From assembly GCA_963805675.1 (NCBI GenBank), contig CAWDVY010000035.1, positions 78,332 through 142,331 of the forward strand: a stretch of DNA of 64,000 nucleotides, read 5' to 3'. This document shows positions 2,957-19,856 of the stretch, piece by piece. Within the stretch, counting starts at the first letter, position 1. Every line of letters begins with the position of its first letter. This stretch comes from an uncultured Actinomycetota bacterium. Its GTDB lineage: Bacteria > Actinomycetota > Actinomycetes > Mycobacteriales > Mycobacteriaceae. Under the pieces are notes generated by a model that was not told the DNA's origin, ran no database searches, and saw only the letters and a list, made by a program, of their open reading frames with translations. The translations under genes were made by a program, and so were the position numbers.

Positions 2957-3961
2957 TTACGCCAAGGACCACCGTTGCAGGGCATGGTGGGCGCTGTCGT
3001 CGCCGGCCTTGACGGTGGCGGTGTGCGTGCCGCGGTGGTCCGACCAGACCGCGTCGGCGACGGCGCGAACGATCGACAAGTCATCGCCGGTCGCATCGTC
3101 GCTTGCGGCGCTGACCGTAAACGACCCGTCGGCGGTCTCGACATGCCACGCGGTTTGCGCGGCGACCGCGAGCGTATCGGCATCCCGGTGCAGCGCGCGC
3201 AGGTCATGGCCGATGTAGGTCGGACGTTGTTCGGGCACTGCGTGAATCGCGTCCCGTGCGGAGCTGGCCCCGGTCAGCACCAGCAGGCTCGGCAGGTCCG
3301 CCGCGTTGGCGCCGGCGATATCGGTGTCCAATCGGTCACCGACTACCAGCGGGACACGAAAGTTGCCGCGCGCCAGCGCATCTGTCATCAAGGTCGGCGA
3401 CGGCTTGCCGGCGATCTGAGGCTCGGCCTCGGTAGCTGTCTTCAGCGCGGCGACCATGGACCCATTGCCGGGCAGCAGACCGCGTTCGGTGGGCAGGGTG
3501 GGATCGACGTTGGCGGCAACCCACAGGGCTCCGGCCCGGATGGCCAGCGCCGCTTCGGCGAGATTGGTCCACCCAGTTTCCGGTGAGTGGCCCTGGACCA
3601 CGGCGTGCGGTTCGTCATGAAAAAGGCGCACCGGCCGCAAGCCGACGGCGGCGATCTCAGCAGCCAGCGACTCGGTGCCGACCACCAGCACCCGGGATTC
3701 GGGCGCCAGTTGGGCGGCCAGTACACGGGCGGCACTTTGTGCGCTGGTGACGACATCGTCGGCGGTCGCGTCCAGACCGAGGTCGTGCAGGTGGCCGGCG
3801 ACCTCGTCGGCGCTGCGCGACGCGTTGTTGGTGACGAATAGCTTTCGGCCTTCAGCTTTTTCCAACGACTCCGCGGCGCCCTCGGTCAGCTCGTGACCGC
3901 GGAATACCGTTCCGTCAAGGTCGAGAAGGAGGCAATCATATTCCTGCGCAAGCGTTCCCAC
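2957..3961 (-). CDS. HAD-IIA family hydrolase (Rv1692-like)
   Basis: DLDGTV motif I, FVTNN, GKP, VGDRLDTDI; start taken at GTG 3961. Confidence 0.92.
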   Translation of the reverse strand: MGTLAQEYDCLLLDLDGTVFRGHELTEGAAESLEKAEGRKLFVTNNASRSADEVAGHLHDLGLDATADDVVTSAQSAARVLAAQLAPESRVLVVGTESLAAEIAAVGLRPVRLFHDEPHAVVQGHSPETGWTNLAEAALAIRAGALWVAANVDPTLPTERGLLPGNGSMVAALKTATEAEPQIAGKPSPTLMTDALARGNFRVPLVVGDRLDTDIAGANAADLPSLLVLTGASSARDAIHAVPEQRPTYIGHDLRALHRDADTLAVAAQTAWHVETADGSFTVSAASDDATGDDLSIVRAVADAVWSDHRGTHTATVKAGDDSAHHALQRWSLA

Positions 3962-3962
3962 G

Positions 3963-4751
3963 TCAGCCGAGCTCACTGACTCGGTCTTCGGCATCGGTGA
4001 CACCGTCGACGTCAGCGGCAGCGGCGCGCAGGAACCACTGCAGTGCCTCGTCGCCGCGGTCGAGCGCCAGCAGCGTCTCCGCGTACGCGTAGCACAGCCG
4101 GGCGGCGATCGCCCCGGTCCGTGTCGGGTCCAGTTGCGGGGTGGACAGGACGGTAAGGGCCTGCTCGAGTTGCCCGAGGTCGGCGCGGGCGCCGGCGACG
4201 ACGATGCGCAGCTCGTCGGCTTCGTCGCCGCTGAGCTTGGCCGCCTCGGGTCCGCGCGCCAGCTCGAGTGCCCGTTCCGGCCGGCCGAGACCGCGTTCGC
4301 AGTCGGCGATCAGCGGAAGCAGCGGAGACTTGCTGCCCATCCTGCGGGCGGCCCGCAGTTCTGCGAGGGCCTGCGACCAATCACCGCACCGGTAGGCTGC
4401 GATGCCGACGGCTTCCCGGACGGCGGCGATGCGGCCAGAGCGGGCCCGCGCGGCGCGGGCATGGTCGAGCGCAGCCTGGGGGTCGTCGTCGATCAACTCC
4501 GCCGCGGCGACCAAGTGGCGGGCCACGGCATCGGCGGTGGCGCGATCCAAAGTGCTGAGCTCCCGGCGGACGTCGGGTGCCAGTTGTTTTGCCTCGATGT
4601 CGGGCGGAATCGGCGGCGCGGTGCGATCCTCATCGGTGGGGCCGTGGTGGGGTTGTCCTCTGCGAGCGCGACCGGGGCCCGAGGTGGGTGCTTCAGAACG
4701 CGGTGCTCGCTTCGGCCGACGTGTCCACTCACCGTGCGTGTTGTCGACCAC
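3963..4751 (-). CDS. TPR-like helical repeat protein (Rv1691-like)
   Basis: REAVGIAAY...ALAELRAARRM, LLPLIADCERGLGRP; position matches the recalled synteny. Confidence 0.85.
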   Translation of the reverse strand: MVDNTHGEWTRRPKRAPRSEAPTSGPGRARRGQPHHGPTDEDRTAPPIPPDIEAKQLAPDVRRELSTLDRATADAVARHLVAAAELIDDDPQAALDHARAARARSGRIAAVREAVGIAAYRCGDWSQALAELRAARRMGSKSPLLPLIADCERGLGRPERALELARGPEAAKLSGDEADELRIVVAGARADLGQLEQALTVLSTPQLDPTRTGAIAARLCYAYAETLLALDRGDEALQWFLRAAAADVDGVTDAEDRVSELG

Positions 4752-12976: not shown

Positions 12977-13076
12977 TTACTGCCTTCCCTGACTGCCTGC
13001 ACATCATGGCACATCGCTGCGGTTGGGCCCGCCGCTTTGGTCACCGCGTGGACCCATCGTTAGGCTGGGCCCGCCG

Positions 13077-13507
13077 GCGCACCTGCTCGGCGCCGAGGCC
13101 TGTGCACCTGGAATACCCGAATCAGGTCGTCTTCGAATTGCTGACCGTGGAGTGAACGACGGCGACCGCATCGGCATTGTAGGACGAAACGGGGACGGCA
13201 AATCCATGCCTGCTGGGTTTGCTCACCGGTGCGGTGTGCCCGGATTTCGGCCGCGCGTCACCCGCTGGAGCGGGTTGTGGGTAGGCGCGCTGAGCCGGAC
13301 CAATACTCTCGACTCGCGCCATACCGTCGGCTGGACGCTGGTCGGCGATCAATCCGAACGCCAGTGGGCGTCCAACCCGCACATCCGCGGCCTGGTTGAT
13401 GGGCTAGTATCCGACATCGGTTGCGATACAACGGTTGCCACGTTATTCGGCCGCCAACGACGAAGGGTCCAGCTGGTCGGCGACCGGGATTATGATCGCG
13501 CTGGACG
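13077..13507 (+). pseudogene. Decayed 5' fragment of an ABC-F gene (paralog of 18078-19856)
   Basis: Aligns by eye with ~18081-18520 (gcgcacctgctcggcgccgagg..., gacggcgaccgcatcggc..., atcgcgctggacg); start codon lost, several indels. Confidence 0.85.
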
Positions 13508-14917: not shown

Positions 14918-15112
14918 CTCTTGTCCGGTCTTGTCTGGCTGGACCACTTTGACGACCTTCACGACGGAATGCATCGGATCATGCCTGAGAGTAACGTGAG
15001 AAACAACACATACGCCCAATAAATATCCCGGTGCTGCCAACGAAACGGCCTGGCCCATGTTTACCGGTTCGTTTGCGCGCCATGGGTGAGGCAGCCGGCG
15101 CAATGTCCGCCG

Positions 15113-15432
<320 letters not shown>

Positions 15433-15610
15433 TCAAGGGTGCCTTTGGAATGGAAAATGCGCTGCTTACTGACCCATCAGCCAAGCTCAAAGCCATCGAT
15501 GCTGTAATCCCGAGGGATGGGACTCGTGCGTCACCATGGCGTTCGACGTAGTCCATAAGTCGGCGGAACCCTTCCTCCTACCGGTCGGCGCGCGGGGTCG
15601 CCGCCTGTAG

Positions 15611-16291
15611 TCAGCGACCGCCGCGTTGGCGACGATTGGGGGCGGGTTCCTGTTGCGGTGGATCCGAGACGAGTTCGCGGAACTTGGACATCATTTCGTC
15701 GAGTAGGGCCAGCGCCAGTGTGCGTGTGTGTGGTGGATCGTTGGACCCCGCGATCTCAAACGACAGCTCGGTGAGCGCTCCGTGCATTGTGGCGGTCAAC
15801 ATGACGGGTGAATGCTTGATCAGGCCCGCAGCGACGAAGCTGCCGATTACTTCGCGGATGACGTCTTCGAAGTTGTCCCGGTAACGTTCGCGCCATCGCT
15901 GCCATCCGACTGCCGCGGGGGCTTCCTTCAAGACCACCGCCTGGTATTCCACTTCGGTGTAGACGTCGAGGAGCACCACGATGGCCGCCCGCGCCTGCCC
16001 CCATGGATCACCGTGATCGGCGAGAGCATCTGCTACGCGGCTGACGCCATCGCTTTGCAGACTGTCGAATATCGCCATGAATAGCCCCAGTTTGCTGCCG
16101 AAGTGGTGTTGCAGCGCACCGCGGGTGACTCCGGCCCGTACACAGATCTGCAGACCGGTGATCTCAGGGTAGGGCTGGGTAGCGAACAGCTCCCGGCCCG
16201 CTTGCATGATCACCTGCCGGGTCGCTTCTGCGTTCCTGTCGCGTCGCGTACTGGCCGGTGTCAAGGTGCGCCTCACACATCTATCGTTCAC
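15611..16291 (-). CDS. TetR family regulator (accessory)
   Basis: HTH ITGLQICVRAGVTRGALQHHFGSKLGLF; likely leaderless GTG at 16291 (alternative ATG 16294). Confidence 0.88.
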   Translation of the reverse strand: MNDRCVRRTLTPASTRRDRNAEATRQVIMQAGRELFATQPYPEITGLQICVRAGVTRGALQHHFGSKLGLFMAIFDSLQSDGVSRVADALADHGDPWGQARAAIVVLLDVYTEVEYQAVVLKEAPAAVGWQRWRERYRDNFEDVIREVIGSFVAAGLIKHSPVMLTATMHGALTELSFEIAGSNDPPHTRTLALALLDEMMSKFRELVSDPPQQEPAPNRRQRGGR

Positions 16292-16550
16292 CATGAACGA
16301 TAGATTCGCAGTGAATATCGGTTGTGAATGGTCCTGAGTAAATTCTGGCATCCAGCGTGGCGATCGAGCGCTAAGCGCCGGCCGCGCTGAGGTGATGCCA
16401 GTGTCAAGGCGCGCCTCACATATGCTAACGTTCACTGTGAATGCTAGATTCGTAGTGAACGTTGATTGTGGATGGTCTTTGGCCTTTGAGGAATTCCGGC
16501 ATCCAGTGTGGCGGTCGAGCGCTAAGCGCCGGCCGCGCTGAGGTGATGCC
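16254..16550. repeat. Imperfect tandem duplication (~143-151 bp, two copies plus the start of a third)
   Basis: Copies start at 16254 (gccggtgtcaagg) and 16397 (gccagtgtcaagg). A 36-bp stretch is identical at 16364-16399 and 16515-16550. Confidence 0.9.
16279..16305. promoter_or_regulatory. Perfect 12-bp inverted repeat (candidate TetR operator containing TATCGT -10 boxes on both strands)
   Basis: ATCTATCGTTCA-CCA-TGAACGATAGAT, overlapping the TetR start. Confidence 0.7.
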
Positions 16551-16596
16551 GGCGTGAATCTATTGGTCTGCCCGCTTGCGTGTCGGTGGAGGTGGC

Positions 16597-17013
16597 GTGC
16601 TCGGCCCCGGAGAGCTTGAGCTTAAGCAAAAGCTGCAGATAAAGCCCGGCCGAAGCGTGGCCGTGGTCAATGCGCCACCCGAATCGGGGTTGAGGCTGCG
16701 AACGGCTGGTGGCCCGAACCCGGATCGGGCTGATGTGGTCATTGGCTTTGCAGTCCGGCCCGCGGACCTGGCATGGCTCAGGTCCGTATATGCGGCCGCC
16801 CGCGCTGGCCGCCTGGCCTGGGTCAGCTACCCCAAACGCGGACAGCCGGGCACCGATCTTCGCCGGGACTGGCTAGTCCGAGCCCTTCGCCAATACGACG
16901 TTGAGGCGGTCCAGGACGTGTCGATCAACGGCACCTGGTCAGCACTGCGGCTGCGCCCGGCCAAGGCTGACCACCAACCCGACACTTCCAGGGCTAACAA
17001 GGACAGCAAGTGA
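16597..17013 (+). CDS. DUF3052-like protein
   Basis: GGAGG RBS; LKQKLQIKPG...WVSYPK...DLRRD...VSINGTWSALRLRP. Confidence 0.65.
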   Translation: MLGPGELELKQKLQIKPGRSVAVVNAPPESGLRLRTAGGPNPDRADVVIGFAVRPADLAWLRSVYAAARAGRLAWVSYPKRGQPGTDLRRDWLVRALRQYDVEAVQDVSINGTWSALRLRPAKADHQPDTSRANKDSK

Positions 17014-17459
17014 GCGACAAGAACAACGACCAGACGTCCGACGAAGGCACCGGGGACACCACCTTCCTTTCCTACGCCGACTTGCTCGGCGAGCTCGACG
17101 CTTCGGCCGCTGGCGCCGCCGAGGCGGGGGTGGGGGAAGTCGAAGGGTTGCCGAGCGGCTCGGCCCTGCTTGTCGTCAAGCGCGGCCCCAACGCCGGATC
17201 GCGGTTCCTGCTGGACCAGCCCGTCACATCCGCTGGCCGCGGCCCCGGTTGCGACATCTTCCTCGACGACCTCACCGTCAGCCGTCGGCACGCCGAGTTC
17301 CGAAGGGACAACGGCGAATTCCAGATCGTTGACATCAGCAGCCTCAACGGCACCTATGTCAACGGTAAACCGGTGGCCTCGGCGATGCTGGCCAACGGCG
17401 ACGAGATCCAGATCGGCAAGTTCCGTCTGGTGGTCCTCATCAGGCCCACGACGGGTTGA
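17010..17459 (+). CDS. FHA-domain protein, GarA/OdhI paralog
   Basis: EGLPSGSALLVVKRGPNAGSRFLLDQ, DIFLDDLTVSRRHAEF, SLNGTYVN, NGDEIQIGKFRLV closely follow recalled GarA; GTGA overlap with the upstream gene. Confidence 0.88.
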   Translation: MSDKNNDQTSDEGTGDTTFLSYADLLGELDASAAGAAEAGVGEVEGLPSGSALLVVKRGPNAGSRFLLDQPVTSAGRGPGCDIFLDDLTVSRRHAEFRRDNGEFQIVDISSLNGTYVNGKPVASAMLANGDEIQIGKFRLVVLIRPTTG

Positions 17460-17652
17460 CGCTGTGGCGGCCATGGAGGGCGCGGATGTCGGCGCGCAAC
17501 AGCGTGTGGTGGCAGTCGGCGCCTCGGCAGGAGGGGTCGTTCCGGACGGAGCGTGCGGATTGGCCGGTCGGGGTGGTGGTGGTCTGGCCGTATTTTGGCT
17601 GGCCGCATGTGTCGCATAGCTCGTCGGTGATCTGCCAGTCCGTTTGACTCAT
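17440..17652 (-). CDS. Possible small Cys-containing protein (70 aa)
   Basis: GAGG-like RBS before ATG; CDTC and CRGADC motifs; no recognised family. Confidence 0.3.
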   Translation of the reverse strand: MSQTDWQITDELCDTCGQPKYGQTTTTPTGQSARSVRNDPSCRGADCHHTLLRADIRALHGRHSVNPSWA

Positions 17653-17818
17653 CGGCCCTACCTCGCCTCGTCGTGGGTGACGCTGCGAAAAATGCTAACG
17701 AGTCCCGCCGACAGGGCCCGGTTACCGACTGGTCGTTGCGCTCCGGACGCAATGGCCGCTCAAACATATTTTGTGCCTACATCGGCACCCGATCAGCAGT
17801 GTTTTCCCAGCAACCCTA

Positions 17819-18040
<222 letters not shown>

Positions 18041-18077
18041 TCACGGCCCGCACCGTCGCCGCGCTAGGGTCGGGGCG

Positions 18078-19856
18078 GTGGCACACCTGCTGGGGGCCGA
18101 GGCAGTGCACCTGGAGTACCCGACTCAGGTCGTCTTCGAGTCGATGACCGTCGGAGTGAGCGACGGCGACCGCATCGGCATCGTGGGACGAAACGGGGAC
18201 GGCAAGTCCAGTTTGCTGGATTTGCTCACCGGTCGGGTGCGCCCCGATGCCGGACGGGTCACGCGGCGCAGCGGCCTACAGGTCGGCGCGCTGAGCCAGG
18301 CAGACACCCTGGATTCGCGCAGCACGGTGGGATGGACACTGGTCGGCGACCGGCCTGAGCACGAGTGGGCCGGTAACCCGCGCATCCGCGACGTGGTCGG
18401 CGGACTGGTCGCCGACATCACCTGGGATGCGACGATCGGAACATTCAGCGGTGGCCAGCGGCGACGGGTCCAGCTGGCCGCGCTGCTGGTCGGCGACTGG
18501 GATGTCATCGCGCTGGACGAGCCGACCAACCACCTCGACATCGAAGGCATCACCTGGCTCGCCACTCACTTGCGTGAGCGCTGGGCCCGCAACACCGGCG
18601 GACTGCTGCTGGTGACCCACGACCGCTGGTTCCTCGATGAGGTGGCGACCACGACCTGGGAGGTGCACGACGGGATCGTCGAGCCGTTCGAGGGCGGCTA
18701 TGCCGCCTATGTGTTGCAGCGAGTCGAGCGGGACCGCCTGGCCGCCGTCGCCGAGGCCAAGCGGCAGAACCTCATGCGCAAGGAGCTGGCTTGGCTGCGA
18801 CGCGGCCCACCGGCACGCACATCGAAACCGAAGTTCCGTATCGATGCGGCCAACCAACTGATCGCCGACGTGCCACCGCTGCGCAACACCGTCGAGTTGG
18901 CCAAACTTGCCACCGCCCGGCTCGGCAAAGATGTCATCGATTTGCTTGACGTGTCGGTCTCGTTCGACGGCCAACCCGTGCTGCGCGATGTCGAATGGCG
19001 AATAGGCCCCGGTGAACGCAGCGGCATCGTCGGGGCCAACGGAGCCGGCAAGTCCACCCTGCTCGGGCTGATCACCGGAGTGGTCCAGCCCGATAGTGGA
19101 AAAGTTAAGCGCGGCAAAACGGTTCGGTTGGGAATGCTCGACCAACGAGGTGATGAGCTGACGCCGTTGGCGAGCGAGCGAGTCGCCGACGTGGTTGGCC
19201 GGCTGCGCACCGACTATCAGGTCGACGGACGTGACGTCACGCCGGCCCAGCTGTTGGAACGGCTCGGGTTCGCCGGCGGCCAGCTATCGGCGCGCGTCGG
19301 TGAGCTTTCCGGCGGGCAACGCCGCCGTCTGCAACTCATGCTCACGCTGCTGGCTGAGCCCAACGTGCTGCTGCTCGATGAACCCACCAACGACGTGGAC
19401 ACCGAGATGCTGGCCGCCACCGAAGACCTGCTCGACTCCTGGCCGGGCACATTGATCGTGGTCTCCCACGACCGCTACCTGCTGGAACGCGTCACCGACC
19501 AGCAGTACGCGATCCTGGATGGCCGGCTTCGACACTTGCCCGGCGGCGTCGACGAGTACCTGCGGCTGGCCGCGCAAGCCACCACCGAGCGCGCTACGCC
19601 GTCAGCCGTCAGACCATCTGAGTCGCAGGAGATTTCAGGGGCCAAATTGCGGACCGCCCAGAAGGAGATCGCTGCAATCGACCGCAGGCTGGCGCGGCTG
19701 GCCGACCAGATCGCGGCCAAGCATCGCGAACTTGCCGAGCATGACCAATCCGACCATATCGGCATTAGCCGGCTGACCCAGGAGTTGCGCGATCTTGAGG
19801 ACGACGTCGCCGAGCTGGAGAATCGCTGGCTGCAACTTTCTGAACTGCTGGAGTAA
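18078..19856 (+). CDS. ABC-F family ATP-binding protein (Uup-like; Rv1668c/1667c-like)
   Basis: Two NBDs (GRNGDGKS/FSGGQ/LDEPTN; GANGAGKS/LSGGQ/LDEPTN), C-terminal coiled coil, no TM segments. Confidence 0.92.
   Translation: MAHLLGAEAVHLEYPTQVVFESMTVGVSDGDRIGIVGRNGDGKSSLLDLLTGRVRPDAGRVTRRSGLQVGALSQADTLDSRSTVGWTLVGDRPEHEWAGNPRIRDVVGGLVADITWDATIGTFSGGQRRRVQLAALLVGDWDVIALDEPTNHLDIEGITWLATHLRERWARNTGGLLLVTHDRWFLDEVATTTWEVHDGIVEPFEGGYAAYVLQRVERDRLAAVAEAKRQNLMRKELAWLRRGPPARTSKPKFRIDAANQLIADVPPLRNTVELAKLATARLGKDVIDLLDVSVSFDGQPVLRDVEWRIGPGERSGIVGANGAGKSTLLGLITGVVQPDSGKVKRGKTVRLGMLDQRGDELTPLASERVADVVGRLRTDYQVDGRDVTPAQLLERLGFAGGQLSARVGELSGGQRRRLQLMLTLLAEPNVLLLDEPTNDVDTEMLAATEDLLDSWPGTLIVVSHDRYLLERVTDQQYAILDGRLRHLPGGVDEYLRLAAQATTERATPSAVRPSESQEISGAKLRTAQKEIAAIDRRLARLADQIAAKHRELAEHDQSDHIGISRLTQELRDLEDDVAELENRWLQLSELLE

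What the first reader, a model, noticed from the sequence alone, without database searches (positions are those of the whole stretch)
17010..17459. Second GarA/OdhI-like FHA protein with an altered phospho-switch, beside the arginine cluster
Seen: the FHA core closely follows GarA (SRRH, LNG, GKFR kept), but the N-terminal motif reads GDTTFLSYAD and the GR loop reads GRGPGCD. Established: GarA has ETTS, is switched off by PknG/PknB phosphorylation of those threonines, and controls KGD, GDH and glutamate synthase; garA normally lies elsewhere in the genome. Inference: a paralog that may escape or alter kinase control, retuning 2-oxoglutarate/glutamate flux. It is coupled to a DUF3052-like gene, and arginine synthesis starts from glutamate.
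Basis: partly seen in the sequence, partly recalled or inferred. Interest (0 to 1): 0.6.

Follow-up and report, generated by a model that had tools for sequence, protein, structure and literature searches.

The report
Mobile accessory GarA regulator cassette
The gene is an intact third copy of GarA, the phosphorylation-switched brake on the TCA cycle and glutamate enzymes of mycobacteria; it sits on a small, horizontally moving, fast-evolving three-gene cassette, and its place next to the arginine genes is an accident of insertion.

Summary
ORF 17010-17459 encodes a 149-aa GarA/OdhI-like FHA protein with DTTFLSYAD in place of ETTSVFRAD and GRGPGCD in place of GRHPDSD. It overlaps the upstream gene by GTGA.

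The genome has three GarA-like genes: the canonical gcvH-garA-merR copy, an orphan copy, and this one. It has one KGD, one large GDH and one PknG.

This copy belongs to a ~2-kb cassette: a divergent TetR gene, a DUF3052-like gene and the GarA-like gene. The cassette recurs at 90-94% DNA identity, with unrelated flanks, in 12 other uncultured soil or peat Mycobacterium MAGs, sometimes in several copies. Its dS against one relative is 0.09-0.13, while housekeeping genes of the same genome pair give 0.75-0.89, so it moved recently. Here it lies inside a dead argH duplicate, so the arginine link is accidental.

Cassette FHA genes evolve at omega ~0.7 (canonical garA 0.04-0.08), and 7 of 15 readable copies are broken. 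In 126 intact accessory paralogs, however, the phosphothreonine pocket and most enzyme-contact residues are nearly invariant. Every one keeps at least one acceptor threonine.

I read it as a retuned accessory GarA, not one that escapes kinase control. About a quarter of sampled Mycobacterium species have extra GarA-like genes, and I found no paper on them. The scan's earlier notes on this locus are all from this same window.

The parts
15611..16294 (-). TetR-family regulator, divergent from the operon. The listed ORF runs to 16435, but homologues start near the ATG at 16294.
   Evidence: Pfam TetR_N 9.3e-10 and TetR_C_41 1.5e-16. Homologues in G026 and G144 align from residue 19-32 onward of the listed ORF. 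The ATG lies in the centre of the palindrome at 16279-16305.
16254..16558 (.). Tandem duplication of a ~145-bp unit (16254-16407 and 16397-16558). Each copy carries a palindromic TetR-operator-like site: 16279-16305 (12-nt arms, perfect) and 16427-16463 (16-nt arms, 88%).
   Evidence: the repeat finder families D1-D3 and inverted repeats I1, I2. The second TetR N-terminal tblastn hit and the internal blastn hits in other loci show the same duplication.
16597..17013 (+). Companion gene: a 138-aa small alpha/beta protein, a remote relative of DUF3052. GTG start with GGAGG 5 nt upstream.
   Evidence: Homologues start at this residue. hhalign against DUF3052 gives 64-68% probability, E 5e-5. 16 of 86 family representatives hit PF11253. 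AF2 model pLDDT 78.5, with the same order of secondary-structure elements as DUF3052.
17010..17459 (+). Accessory GarA/OdhI-like FHA protein, 149 aa. Its start overlaps the companion's stop (GTGA).
   Evidence: NCBIfam OdhI equivalog model 192.5 bits against a cut-off of 200.
17055..17075 (+). Switch motif codons D16-T17-T18-F19-L20-S21-Y22. Both acceptor threonines are kept. The +1 to +4 residues (FLSY, 17064-17075) are replaced by a clustered patch of 5 changes in 10 nt relative to the SRFR-type alleles.
   Evidence: Codon alignment of cassette alleles. An RNA-library contig diverges exactly at 17064 (table 7).
17238..17255 (+). Codons R77-G-P-G-C-D82: the loop after the phosphate-binding Arg. 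HPDS is replaced by GPGC through a clustered patch of 6 differences in 12 nt, one of them a synonymous change in the Arg codon.
   Evidence: Variant letters at 17240-17249 and a loose end at 17251 in RNA-library contigs.
15115..15339 (-). Dead argH fragment (residues 441-515), left flank of the cassette.
   Evidence: tblastn with the intact ArgH of the window: 53% identity, E 1e-15.
17828..17977 (-). Dead argH fragment (residues 291-340), right flank of the cassette. It is collinear with the left fragment, so the cassette replaced about 100 codons of a duplicate argH.
   Evidence: tblastn: 72% identity, E 1e-7.

Best explanation
The ORF is an intact, probably functional accessory member of the GarA/OdhI family. 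It is carried on a ~2-kb cassette: a divergent TetR repressor gene, two palindromic operator-like sites, a DUF3052-like gene and the GarA-like gene. The cassette spreads horizontally among uncultured soil and peat mycobacteria, and here it landed in a decaying argH duplicate.

Shown: cassette structure, mobility, fast evolution, frequent decay of the FHA gene elsewhere, and conservation of the FHA pocket, of most enzyme-contact residues and of at least one acceptor Thr across the accessory family.

Inferred mechanism: when the TetR repressor releases the operon, the cell makes an extra GarA-type protein. Its FHA domain binds the same single-copy targets as GarA (KGD, the large GDH, glutamate synthase). 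It is still recruited and phosphorylated by PknG and/or PknB through FHA docking. Its self-inhibition is retuned. After the first Thr the +3 residue is still hydrophobic (Leu). After the second Thr the aromatic +3 residue is replaced by Ser. The loop next to the phosphate-binding Arg is rebuilt. So it would add a conditionally expressed brake on 2-oxoglutarate and glutamate flux with a kinase response different from the housekeeping GarA. The partner protein's role is unknown. Its distant relative DUF3052 is a fixed neighbour of aceE (pyruvate dehydrogenase E1), which points to the shared PDH/ODH complex.
For: Family: GarA and OdhI are the best solved relatives. All seven FHA residues named as OdhA/KGD contacts in PMC10415282 (OdhI R53, R72, S86, R87, L107, K132, R134) are present as R58, R77, S91, R92, L112, K137, R139.

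Family-wide constraint in 126 intact accessory paralogs: R62, S95, H98, N117 and T119 are 126/126; R81, R96 and L116 are 125/126; K141 is 118/126 and R143 is 116/126. At least one acceptor Thr/Ser is present in 126/126 and TT in 95/126.

Canonical copy elsewhere: gcvH-garA-merR. Single KGD, GDH and PknG.

Cassette: 90-94% DNA identity over about 15519/15608 to 17444/17537 in 15 loci with unrelated flanks. RNA-library contigs have loose ends at 15519, 15608 and 17465-17468.

Horizontal transfer: G000 against G026 gives dS 0.095 (FHA), 0.087 (companion) and 0.130 (TetR), against 0.75-0.89 for garA, gcvH and merR.

Coupling: the GTGA overlap is kept in 11 loci.

Possible expression: contigs from 4 metatranscriptome libraries of 3 studies cover TetR, companion and FHA.

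Kinase docking through the FHA domain: PMC8546545.

DUF3052-aceE: the 5' end of aceE lies within 1.5 kb of DUF3052 in 23 of 24 loci of 23 genomes from 9 genera.
Against: Cassette FHA genes evolve at omega 0.68-0.80 (N-terminal 48 codons ~1.5, FHA core ~0.53), while canonical garA gives 0.04-0.08 at equal or larger divergence. In 7 of 15 readable cassette copies the FHA gene is truncated or frameshifted while the companion stays open, so the protein is dispensable in many hosts. The two changed patches could be neutral multi-nucleotide events; they occur in mosaic combinations. The score is just under the NCBIfam OdhI equivalog cut-off. RNA-library contigs can contain DNA, come from relatives rather than this strain, and had no silent control stretch. 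No binding, phosphorylation or expression was measured for this protein.
Confidence: 0.6

Rival explanations
1. A decaying passenger. The copy is a recently transferred duplicate with no role in this host, still intact only because too little time has passed. The altered motifs are drift.
For: Omega is 0.7-0.8 for the gene and about 1.5 for the N-terminal region. Seven of 15 readable cassette copies have a broken FHA gene. The cassette is inserted in junk DNA, a dead argH. Both distinctive motifs arose as clustered multi-nucleotide patches.
Against: Pocket and contact residues are almost invariant in 126 intact paralogs, and every one keeps an acceptor Thr. Nineteen close variants at 89-99% protein identity (P0001-P0015, P0017-P0019, P0023) are all intact and keep both patches. 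The ribosome-binding site and the GTGA coupling are preserved. The cassette is present in RNA libraries. Omega is inflated at dS below 0.1, because mildly harmful changes are not yet purged (general knowledge).
Confidence: 0.2
2. An addiction or conflict module. The GarA-like protein acts as a metabolic toxin (a constitutive brake on KGD/GDH) and the DUF3052-like protein is its antidote, as in a type II toxin-antitoxin pair. That would explain the mobility and the fast evolution.
For: The unit is a two-gene operon with a 4-nt overlap, is mobile and is multi-copy. In 5 of the 7 disrupted loci (L071, L075, L076, L079, L080) the downstream FHA gene is broken while the upstream gene stays open and TetR shows no break in the part held, the decay order expected for a toxin. 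The other two carry further damage: L081 also has a frameshifted TetR gene, and in L078 a deletion fuses the companion in frame to the kinase gene downstream. In three loci of one MAG the two-gene unit is seen without a TetR hit; only L077 has enough upstream DNA (6 kb) to show that TetR is truly missing. A Mycobacterium chimaera plasmid encodes a 113-aa GarA-like FHA domain without the switch arm, directly after a weakly Phd/YefM-like ORF (E 0.0014, below the Pfam cut-off).
Against: The companion family is large (2,106 cluster representatives) and outside Mycobacterium stands alone, without an FHA gene or a conserved partner. The cassette has its own TetR repressor, which is not the usual antitoxin autoregulation. 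There are no PADLOC hits, and no PHROG hits for the companion or the FHA protein; only the TetR gene matches phage families of unknown function. The acceptor threonines are kept, so the cell's kinases can already switch the protein off.
Confidence: 0.1
3. One reading: a kinase-insensitive GarA that retunes glutamate supply for the neighbouring arginine pathway.
For: ETTS is changed and the loop after the Arg is changed. The arg cluster is adjacent in this genome.
Against: TT and the docking pocket are kept. The arg adjacency is found in none of the 12 other genomes with the cassette and results from insertion into a dead argH copy.
Confidence: 0.05

Closest known systems
GarA (Rv1827) of Mycobacterium tuberculosis and M. 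smegmatis, and OdhI of Corynebacterium glutamicum
   Same: The architecture is the same: a disordered N-terminal arm with two adjacent threonines, a linker and an FHA domain. It is 70% identical to this genome's canonical GarA. All named phosphothreonine-pocket and KGD/OdhA-contact residues are kept.
   Different: It is not in the gcvH-garA-merR position. The motif is DTTF-LSY instead of the ETTS-VFR that is invariant in 26 of 26 canonical genes. The loop is GPGC instead of HPDS. The acidic/Gly C-terminal tail is missing. The score is below the NCBIfam equivalog cut-off. It is on a mobile TetR cassette and evolves about ten times faster at non-synonymous sites.
The orphan GarA paralog of the same genome (G000:C25:784331-784774, locus L002)
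   Same: It is 149 aa, has the same RPTTG end, and is 77% identical.
   Different: It keeps ETTS and GRHPGSD, but it has lost the KGD-contact Lys (GKFR is replaced by GPVR). It has no companion or TetR gene. It lies beside Hsp20 and ribosome-hibernation (S30AE_C) genes and falls in a different branch of the tree.
DUF3052 (PF11253; Rv2239c, SCO2370), an actinobacterial signature protein of unknown function
   Same: The companion aligns over its full length to the DUF3052 profile and has the same predicted order of strands and helices. The families are bridged by members that hit both.
   Different: The companion gives no direct Pfam hit. It lacks the acidic insert. It is not next to aceE, whereas canonical DUF3052 is in 23 of 24 loci.
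Type II toxin-antitoxin operons
   Same: A small two-gene operon with overlapping stop and start, mobile and multi-copy, with the downstream gene preferentially inactivated.
   Different: Neither protein belongs to a known toxin or antitoxin family. There is a separate TetR regulator. The upstream family is mostly found alone.

Membership tests
GarA/OdhI (NCBIfam NF041660 equivalog) | FHA domain with the phosphothreonine-binding residues (GarA R81, S95, R96, N117, T119) | tested here: met
   R77, S91, R92, N113 and T115 are present. Pfam FHA E 3.9e-21.
GarA/OdhI (NCBIfam NF041660 equivalog) | Residues that contact KGD/OdhA (OdhI R53, R72, S86, R87, L107, K132, R134; PMC10415282) | tested here: met
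   R58, R77, S91, R92, L112, K137 and R139 are all kept.
GarA/OdhI (NCBIfam NF041660 equivalog) | N-terminal ETTS phosphorylation motif | tested here: not met
   The motif reads DTTF. The two threonines are kept, but the -1 and +1 residues differ. ETTS is present in 26 of 26 canonical genes.
GarA/OdhI (NCBIfam NF041660 equivalog) | Score at or above the curated equivalog cut-off (200 bits) | tested here: not met
   192.5 bits. The canonical copy scores 233 and the orphan paralog 206.8.
GarA/OdhI (NCBIfam NF041660 equivalog) | Conserved gene position gcvH-garA-merR | tested here: not met
   That position is occupied by another gene on contig C26. This copy lies between TetR plus companion and a dead argH.
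GarA/OdhI (NCBIfam NF041660 equivalog) | Phosphorylation by PknG/PknB, and phospho-dependent release of KGD, GDH and GltB | not testable with these tools
   Only indirect evidence: one PknG, one KGD and one GDH are encoded, and docking depends on the FHA pocket.
DUF3052 (PF11253) | Match to the Pfam model above its cut-off | tested here: not met
   No hit even at E 10. The whole-genome PF11253 search finds two other loci, not this one.
DUF3052 (PF11253) | Remote homology and shared fold | tested here: inconclusive
   hhalign probability 64-68%, E 5e-5, full length. 16 of 86 family representatives hit PF11253, best E 1e-5. The order of secondary-structure elements is the same. Foldseek gives only weak methyltransferase-like matches.
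DUF3052 (PF11253) | Divergent neighbour of aceE | tested here: not met
   Canonical DUF3052 has this neighbour in 23 of 24 loci. The companion does not.
TetR-family repressor with palindromic operator | TetR_N helix-turn-helix plus a TetR C-terminal domain, divergent from the regulated operon, with a palindrome in the intergenic region | tested here: met
   Pfam TetR_N and TetR_C_41. Palindromes at 16279-16305 and 16427-16463. Binding was not tested.
Type II toxin-antitoxin module | Proteins that belong to known toxin and antitoxin families | tested here: not met
   No Pfam or PADLOC match of that kind, and no PHROG match for the companion or the FHA protein.

The most novel reading that the evidence does not exclude
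Accessory GarA genes form an undescribed, horizontally exchanged family present in about a quarter of Mycobacterium species. Their enzyme-binding FHA face is fixed while the phospho-switch arm diversifies. In the cassette form the GarA-like protein works together with a DUF3052-family partner as a TetR-gated, transferable two-protein regulator of the actinobacterial PDH/ODH supercomplex. This would also give a first functional handle on DUF3052, an actinobacterial signature protein that always sits beside aceE.
Probability: 0.2. Interest if true: 0.75.

Novelty: new variant of a known kind. Interest (0 to 1): 0.55.

Why it matters
[quoted passage not shown] It is studied as a drug-target pathway in M. 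tuberculosis and as an engineering lever in glutamate, arginine and antibiotic producers.

This work shows that many environmental mycobacteria carry extra, mobile GarA copies. Their enzyme-binding face is frozen while the kinase-facing arm varies: TT, IT, TA, and many different +1 to +4 residues. That is a natural mutational scan of the switch. It could show which residues set kinase choice and the strength of self-inhibition.

The coupling to a DUF3052 relative, together with the near-invariant DUF3052-aceE adjacency, gives a testable lead on a signature protein that has no known function.

Tried and rejected
I used the search for related loci on genome contigs instead.
- PADLOC gave nothing. 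PHROGs gave nothing for the companion or the FHA protein, and only weak hits of unknown function for the TetR gene.
- Phage records gave one weak FHA-core hit.
- Plasmid records matched only the FHA core, never the cassette. The Gordonia plasmid hit is a copy of the whole canonical gcvH-garA-merR block.
- Foldseek on the companion model gave only weak methyltransferase/Rossmann-like matches (E above 1e-3, TM 0.4-0.56), too weak to name a function.
- Companion homologues outside Mycobacterium showed no conserved neighbour.
- A compensated-frameshift origin of the FLSY patch was considered. It needs three indels plus one substitution, against five substitutions, so it is not more economical. I report only 'clustered patch'.
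- The careful maximum-likelihood tree did not finish. Only the quick tree with SH-aLRT support is used, and many forks are unresolved.
- The parts of 15000-18200 without RNA-library cover (the flanks) say nothing: the contigs come from relatives with other flanks.
- The idea that paralogous targets or a second PknG match the extra GarA copies was rejected for this genome: one KGD, one large GDH, one PknG_TPR. GltB copy number was not checked.
Full report
**1. What is at the coordinates**

ORF 17010-17459 (+) starts with GTG, has AAGGA 9 nt upstream and encodes 149 aa. It carries an FHA domain (Pfam E 3.9e-21). Its best solved relatives are M. tuberculosis and M. smegmatis GarA (6i2p, 2kfu, 8p5r; E about 1e-60) and C. 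glutamicum OdhI (E 4e-49).

The upstream ORF ends at 17013, so stop and start overlap as GTGA. Judged from homologues, the upstream gene's real start is the GTG at 16597, which gives 138 aa with GGAGG 5 nt upstream.

**2. It is the third GarA-like gene of the genome, not the second**

A six-frame search of the window's own assembly (36 contigs, 6.25 Mb, 96.7% complete) finds three full-length GarA-like genes.

- The canonical copy (contig C26) lies in the conserved gcvH-garA-merR block. It has TVETTSVFRADFL, GRHPDSD and an acidic/Gly tail, and it is 70% identical to the window copy.
- An orphan 149-aa copy (contig C25) is 77% identical. It has ETTS and GRHPGSD, but GPVR in place of GKFR. It lies beside an Hsp20 gene and an S30AE_C ribosome-hibernation gene.
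- The third is the window copy.

The NCBIfam OdhI equivalog model (cut-off 200 bits) scores them 233, 206.8 and 192.5 bits, so the window copy is the most divergent. The same genome has one KGD (OxoGdeHyase_C), one large NAD-GDH and one PknG (PknG_TPR). Three readers therefore face single-copy targets and a single PknG.

**3. Extra GarA genes are common and undescribed**

In 200 scored Mycobacterium species genomes (GTDB genus), 199 have a GarA-like match at E <= 1e-35 and 55 have two to four (my count of the table). All 25 best-scoring loci with a gcvH and merR context carry TVETTSVFRADFL without a single change in ETTSVFR.

Two full-text searches for GarA paralogs found nothing on the subject. 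A 2025 paper still describes GarA as one highly conserved protein with a conserved ETTS motif (PMC12321487).

**4. The window copy belongs to a discrete, mobile cassette**

The companion protein was found in only 3 of 36 same-genus relatives sampled. A scan of 185,579 species genomes gave 49 loci.

In 16 loci from 12 uncultured 'Mycobacterium sp.' or 'Actinomycetota' MAGs, a GarA-like gene follows the companion directly, with a companion at 60% identity or more. Most of these loci have the divergent TetR gene upstream. At the DNA level the window matches 15 of these 16 loci at 81-94% identity, 90-94% in most of them, from about 15411/15519/15589/15608 to about 17444/17524/17537. The sixteenth (L083) matches at only 72-77%. 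None of the cassette loci matches the window's flanks, including the ABC-F and argH genes. RNA-library contigs show loose ends at the same places: 15519, 15608 and 17465-17468.

Some MAGs hold several copies: DASPOT01 has four loci, CAWKME01 two and CAWBFI01 two. In three DASPOT01 loci no TetR hit is seen, but only L077 holds enough upstream DNA (6 kb) to show that TetR is really missing.

**5. Evidence for recent horizontal transfer**

Between this genome and G026, the housekeeping block gives dS 0.75 (garA), 0.75 (gcvH) and 0.89 (merR). The cassette genes give 0.095 (FHA), 0.087 (companion) and 0.130 (TetR). Against G008 the companion gives 0.21, while housekeeping genes give 0.74-1.06. The cassette is thus six to nine times younger than the genomes that carry it.

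GarA-like FHA genes also occur on plasmids of Mycobacteriales. One is a 25-kb M. chimaera plasmid with a 113-aa switch-less version.

**6. The arginine adjacency is accidental**

tblastn with the window's intact ArgH finds two collinear dead fragments on the minus strand. Residues 441-515 lie at 15115-15339 and residues 291-340 at 17828-17977. A dead ABC-F 5' piece lies at 13020-13490.

The cassette therefore replaced about 100 codons of a duplicated, decaying argH. This also argues against an assembly chimera, because both flanks belong to one ghost gene. In six other loci the cassette sits between a tandem-USP gene and a GAF-GAF-HisKA_3 sensor kinase of the DosS/DosT type. In others it sits beside a carboxylesterase gene or a thiamine-enzyme gene.

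**7. Evolutionary regime**

Pairwise Nei-Gojobori estimates were made among nine intact cassette alleles.

| Gene or region | omega |
|---|---|
| Cassette FHA gene, all pairs (median) | 0.75 |
| Cassette FHA, N-terminal 48 codons | ~1.5 |
| Cassette FHA, core | ~0.53 |
| Companion (median) | 0.63 |
| Cassette TetR | 0.35-0.48 |
| Canonical garA | 0.04-0.08 |
| gcvH | 0.20-0.27 |
| merR | 0.06-0.13 |

The housekeeping values include a genome pair with similarly low dS (0.13-0.18). Omega is known to be inflated at very low dS, but the contrast at equal dS stands.

Seven of 15 readable cassette copies have a broken FHA gene, by internal deletion or frameshift: L071, L075, L076, L078, L079, L080 and L081 (L079 and L080 show the same break). 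In L071, L075, L076, L079, L080 and L081 the companion ORF stays open. In L078 a deletion fuses the companion in frame to the kinase gene downstream. In L081 the TetR gene is frameshifted as well.

**8. The intact members are clearly constrained where it matters**

I aligned 126 intact accessory paralogs (metagenome proteins P0001-P0119 of 140 aa or more, plus genome loci) with 26 canonical proteins. [quoted passage not shown] They correspond to GarA R62, R81, S95, R96, L116, K141 and R143.

| GarA residue(s) | Kept in accessory paralogs (of 126) |
|---|---|
| R62, S95 | 126 |
| R81, R96, L116 | 125 |
| K141 | 118 |
| R143 | 116 |
| H98, N117, T119 | 126 |

The window protein keeps all of them.

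In the switch arm, the two acceptor positions read TT in 95 paralogs, IT in 18, TA in 7 and other single losses in 6. None lacks both acceptors. The -1 residue is Asp in 101, where all canonical proteins have Glu. The +1 to +4 residues vary widely (S/F/A/P, L/A/R/G, F/S/L, R/Y/P). Mean column entropy is 1.07 in the arm and 0.47 in the FHA domain; in canonical GarA the values are 0.33 and 0.12.

The quick tree puts all canonical genes on one side of a 99% branch with very short tips. The three cassette-linked genes from genomes with a known context fall in a 76-row group (SH-aLRT 94), and the orphan types fall elsewhere.

**9. The two features that define the window allele are clustered DNA patches**

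FLSY against SRFR is 5 changes within 10 nt, hitting four consecutive codons. GPGC against HPDS is 6 differences within 12 nt, one of them a synonymous change in the Arg codon. The surrounding DNA is otherwise about 93% identical.

All FLSY alleles share the identical patch, which argues for a single origin. The patches occur in all four combinations among intact genes, and GPGC also turns up in a distant branch with ETTPAYRED. Recombination among copies is therefore likely and strict co-variation is not seen.

Nineteen close variants keep both patches: P0001-P0015, P0017-P0019 and P0023 (89-99% identity).

**10. The companion and DUF3052**

The companion gives no Pfam or NCBIfam hit. The case for remote homology to DUF3052 rests on four results.

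- Its family profile aligns over the full length to a DUF3052 profile, with probability 64-68% and E 5e-5. The shared motifs are L(G/Q)IKPGq-V, W-x-x-PK-x-G-x-PG and W-S-x-x-RL.
- A profile search of 1.84 billion representatives finds 2,106 relatives.
- 16 of 86 of those relatives hit PF11253 on their own.
- AF2 models of the two families (pLDDT 78.5 and 70.6) have the same order of strands and helices.

Outside Mycobacterium the family stands alone, with no FHA gene and no conserved neighbour. It occurs in Streptosporangiaceae, Microbacteriaceae, Nocardioides and some non-actinobacterial MAGs.

Canonical DUF3052 is a divergent neighbour of aceE. The 5' end of aceE lies within 1.5 kb in 23 of 24 loci from 23 genomes of 9 genera, including both copies in this genome. 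A review lists DUF3052 as an actinobacterial signature protein of unknown function (PMC4255298). AceE and OdhA/KGD work in one PDH/ODH supercomplex (PMC10415282). A cassette that pairs relatives of a KGD regulator and of an aceE-linked protein is therefore suggestive. This link is inference only.

**11. Regulation and expression**

The TetR gene (TetR_N plus TetR_C_41) is divergent from the operon. The ~300-bp intergenic region contains a tandem duplication of a ~145-bp unit. Each copy has a palindrome: ATCTATCGTTCA-N3-TGAACGATAGAT, which covers the probable TetR start codon, and a 16-nt-arm relative of it. No sigma-70 consensus promoter was found.

Contigs assembled from four metatranscriptome libraries (three studies; peat, wetland and soil) cover TetR, companion and FHA at 93-100% identity. 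This fits transcription in nature but does not prove it: DNA carry-over is possible, there was no control stretch, and the contigs come from relatives.

**12. Mechanism I consider most likely**

PknG recognises GarA/OdhI mainly by docking of the FHA pocket on the kinase's own phosphothreonines. Activity is ~45-fold higher than on the ETTS peptide alone, whose Km is above 1 mM (PMC8546545). The window protein keeps that pocket and both threonines, so it should still be a kinase substrate.

What changes is the peptide that must fold back into the pocket. After T17 the +3 residue is Leu (Val in GarA). After T18 it is Ser (Phe in GarA). The loop next to the phosphate-binding Arg is also rebuilt. 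I infer a retuned switch in which the first-Thr route is favoured and the strength of self-inhibition is altered. It sits on a protein that binds the usual targets and is made only when the TetR repressor lets go.

**13. Rivals**

**14. Verdict**

The sequence observation is right and the paralog idea is right. Escape from kinase control and the arginine link are not supported.

The larger result is a previously undescribed accessory GarA family with a fixed enzyme face and a diversifying switch arm. Here it is carried on a mobile TetR / DUF3052-like / GarA cassette. It is a new variant of a known kind and of moderate interest.

Noticed in passing
window 13020-13490, 15115-15339, 17828-17977: Dead fragments of a second ABC-F/argH pair lie next to the intact pair. 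The argH ghost is split by the cassette, and its right piece overlaps the listed start of the intact ABC-F ORF, whose real start is probably further downstream.
   Followed up: partly
window 16254-16558: A ~145-bp unit holding the operator-like palindrome and the 5' end of the TetR gene is tandemly duplicated. The same duplication shows up as internal blastn hits in several other cassette loci.
   Followed up: partly
L002 (G000:C25:782831-786274), gene at 1498-1947: This second accessory GarA paralog keeps ETTS but has GPVR in place of GKFR, so the KGD-contact Lys is lost. It lies beside an Hsp20 gene and an S30AE_C ribosome-hibernation gene, a dormancy-type neighbourhood.
   Followed up: partly
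L073 (G026), L069, L078-L081: In six loci the cassette lies between a tandem universal-stress-protein gene and a GAF-GAF-HisKA_3-HATPase sensor kinase of the DosS/DosT type. This suggests an original home in a hypoxia or dormancy island.
   Followed up: partly
L120 (NZ_CP012887.2, M. intracellulare subsp. chimaera 25-kb plasmid), 3748-4322: The PLSDB gene table lists no gene at the match. A 113-aa GarA-like FHA-only ORF lies there, with no switch arm, SPHH for SRRH and SPDG for SLNG. It directly follows a 71-aa ORF with a weak Phd/YefM antitoxin match (E 0.0014, below the Pfam cut-off).
   Followed up: partly
L044-L067; G000:C34:489762-493260 and C36:7840-11230: Canonical DUF3052 is a divergent neighbour of aceE in 23 of 24 loci from 9 genera. 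This genome has two such pairs. In the C36 copy, aceE is spread over three reading frames, so it is either a pseudogene or sequence from a contaminating strain.
   Followed up: partly
L078 4842-7223: A deletion fuses the companion gene, the first ~58 codons of the FHA gene and the downstream GAF sensor kinase gene into one 794-codon open frame.
   Followed up: no
L083 4964-5326: This is a divergent cassette allele. Its FHA protein has a much shorter arm (SEPATTTGRHPPE...) and joins the FHA domain almost directly, yet it keeps a Thr cluster and the GTGA overlap.
   Followed up: no
L077 6396-6833 and L074 6396-6842: These intact alleles have changes at otherwise fixed residues. L077 has VVKCG (the KGD-contact Arg is replaced by Cys) and GKSR. 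L074 has SRWH.
   Followed up: no
window 17440-17652 (-): The 70-codon antisense ORF that overlaps the FHA stop corresponds in G026 to the tail of a longer antisense frame that ends in the same residues. It is most likely a GC-rich shadow frame rather than a gene.
   Followed up: no
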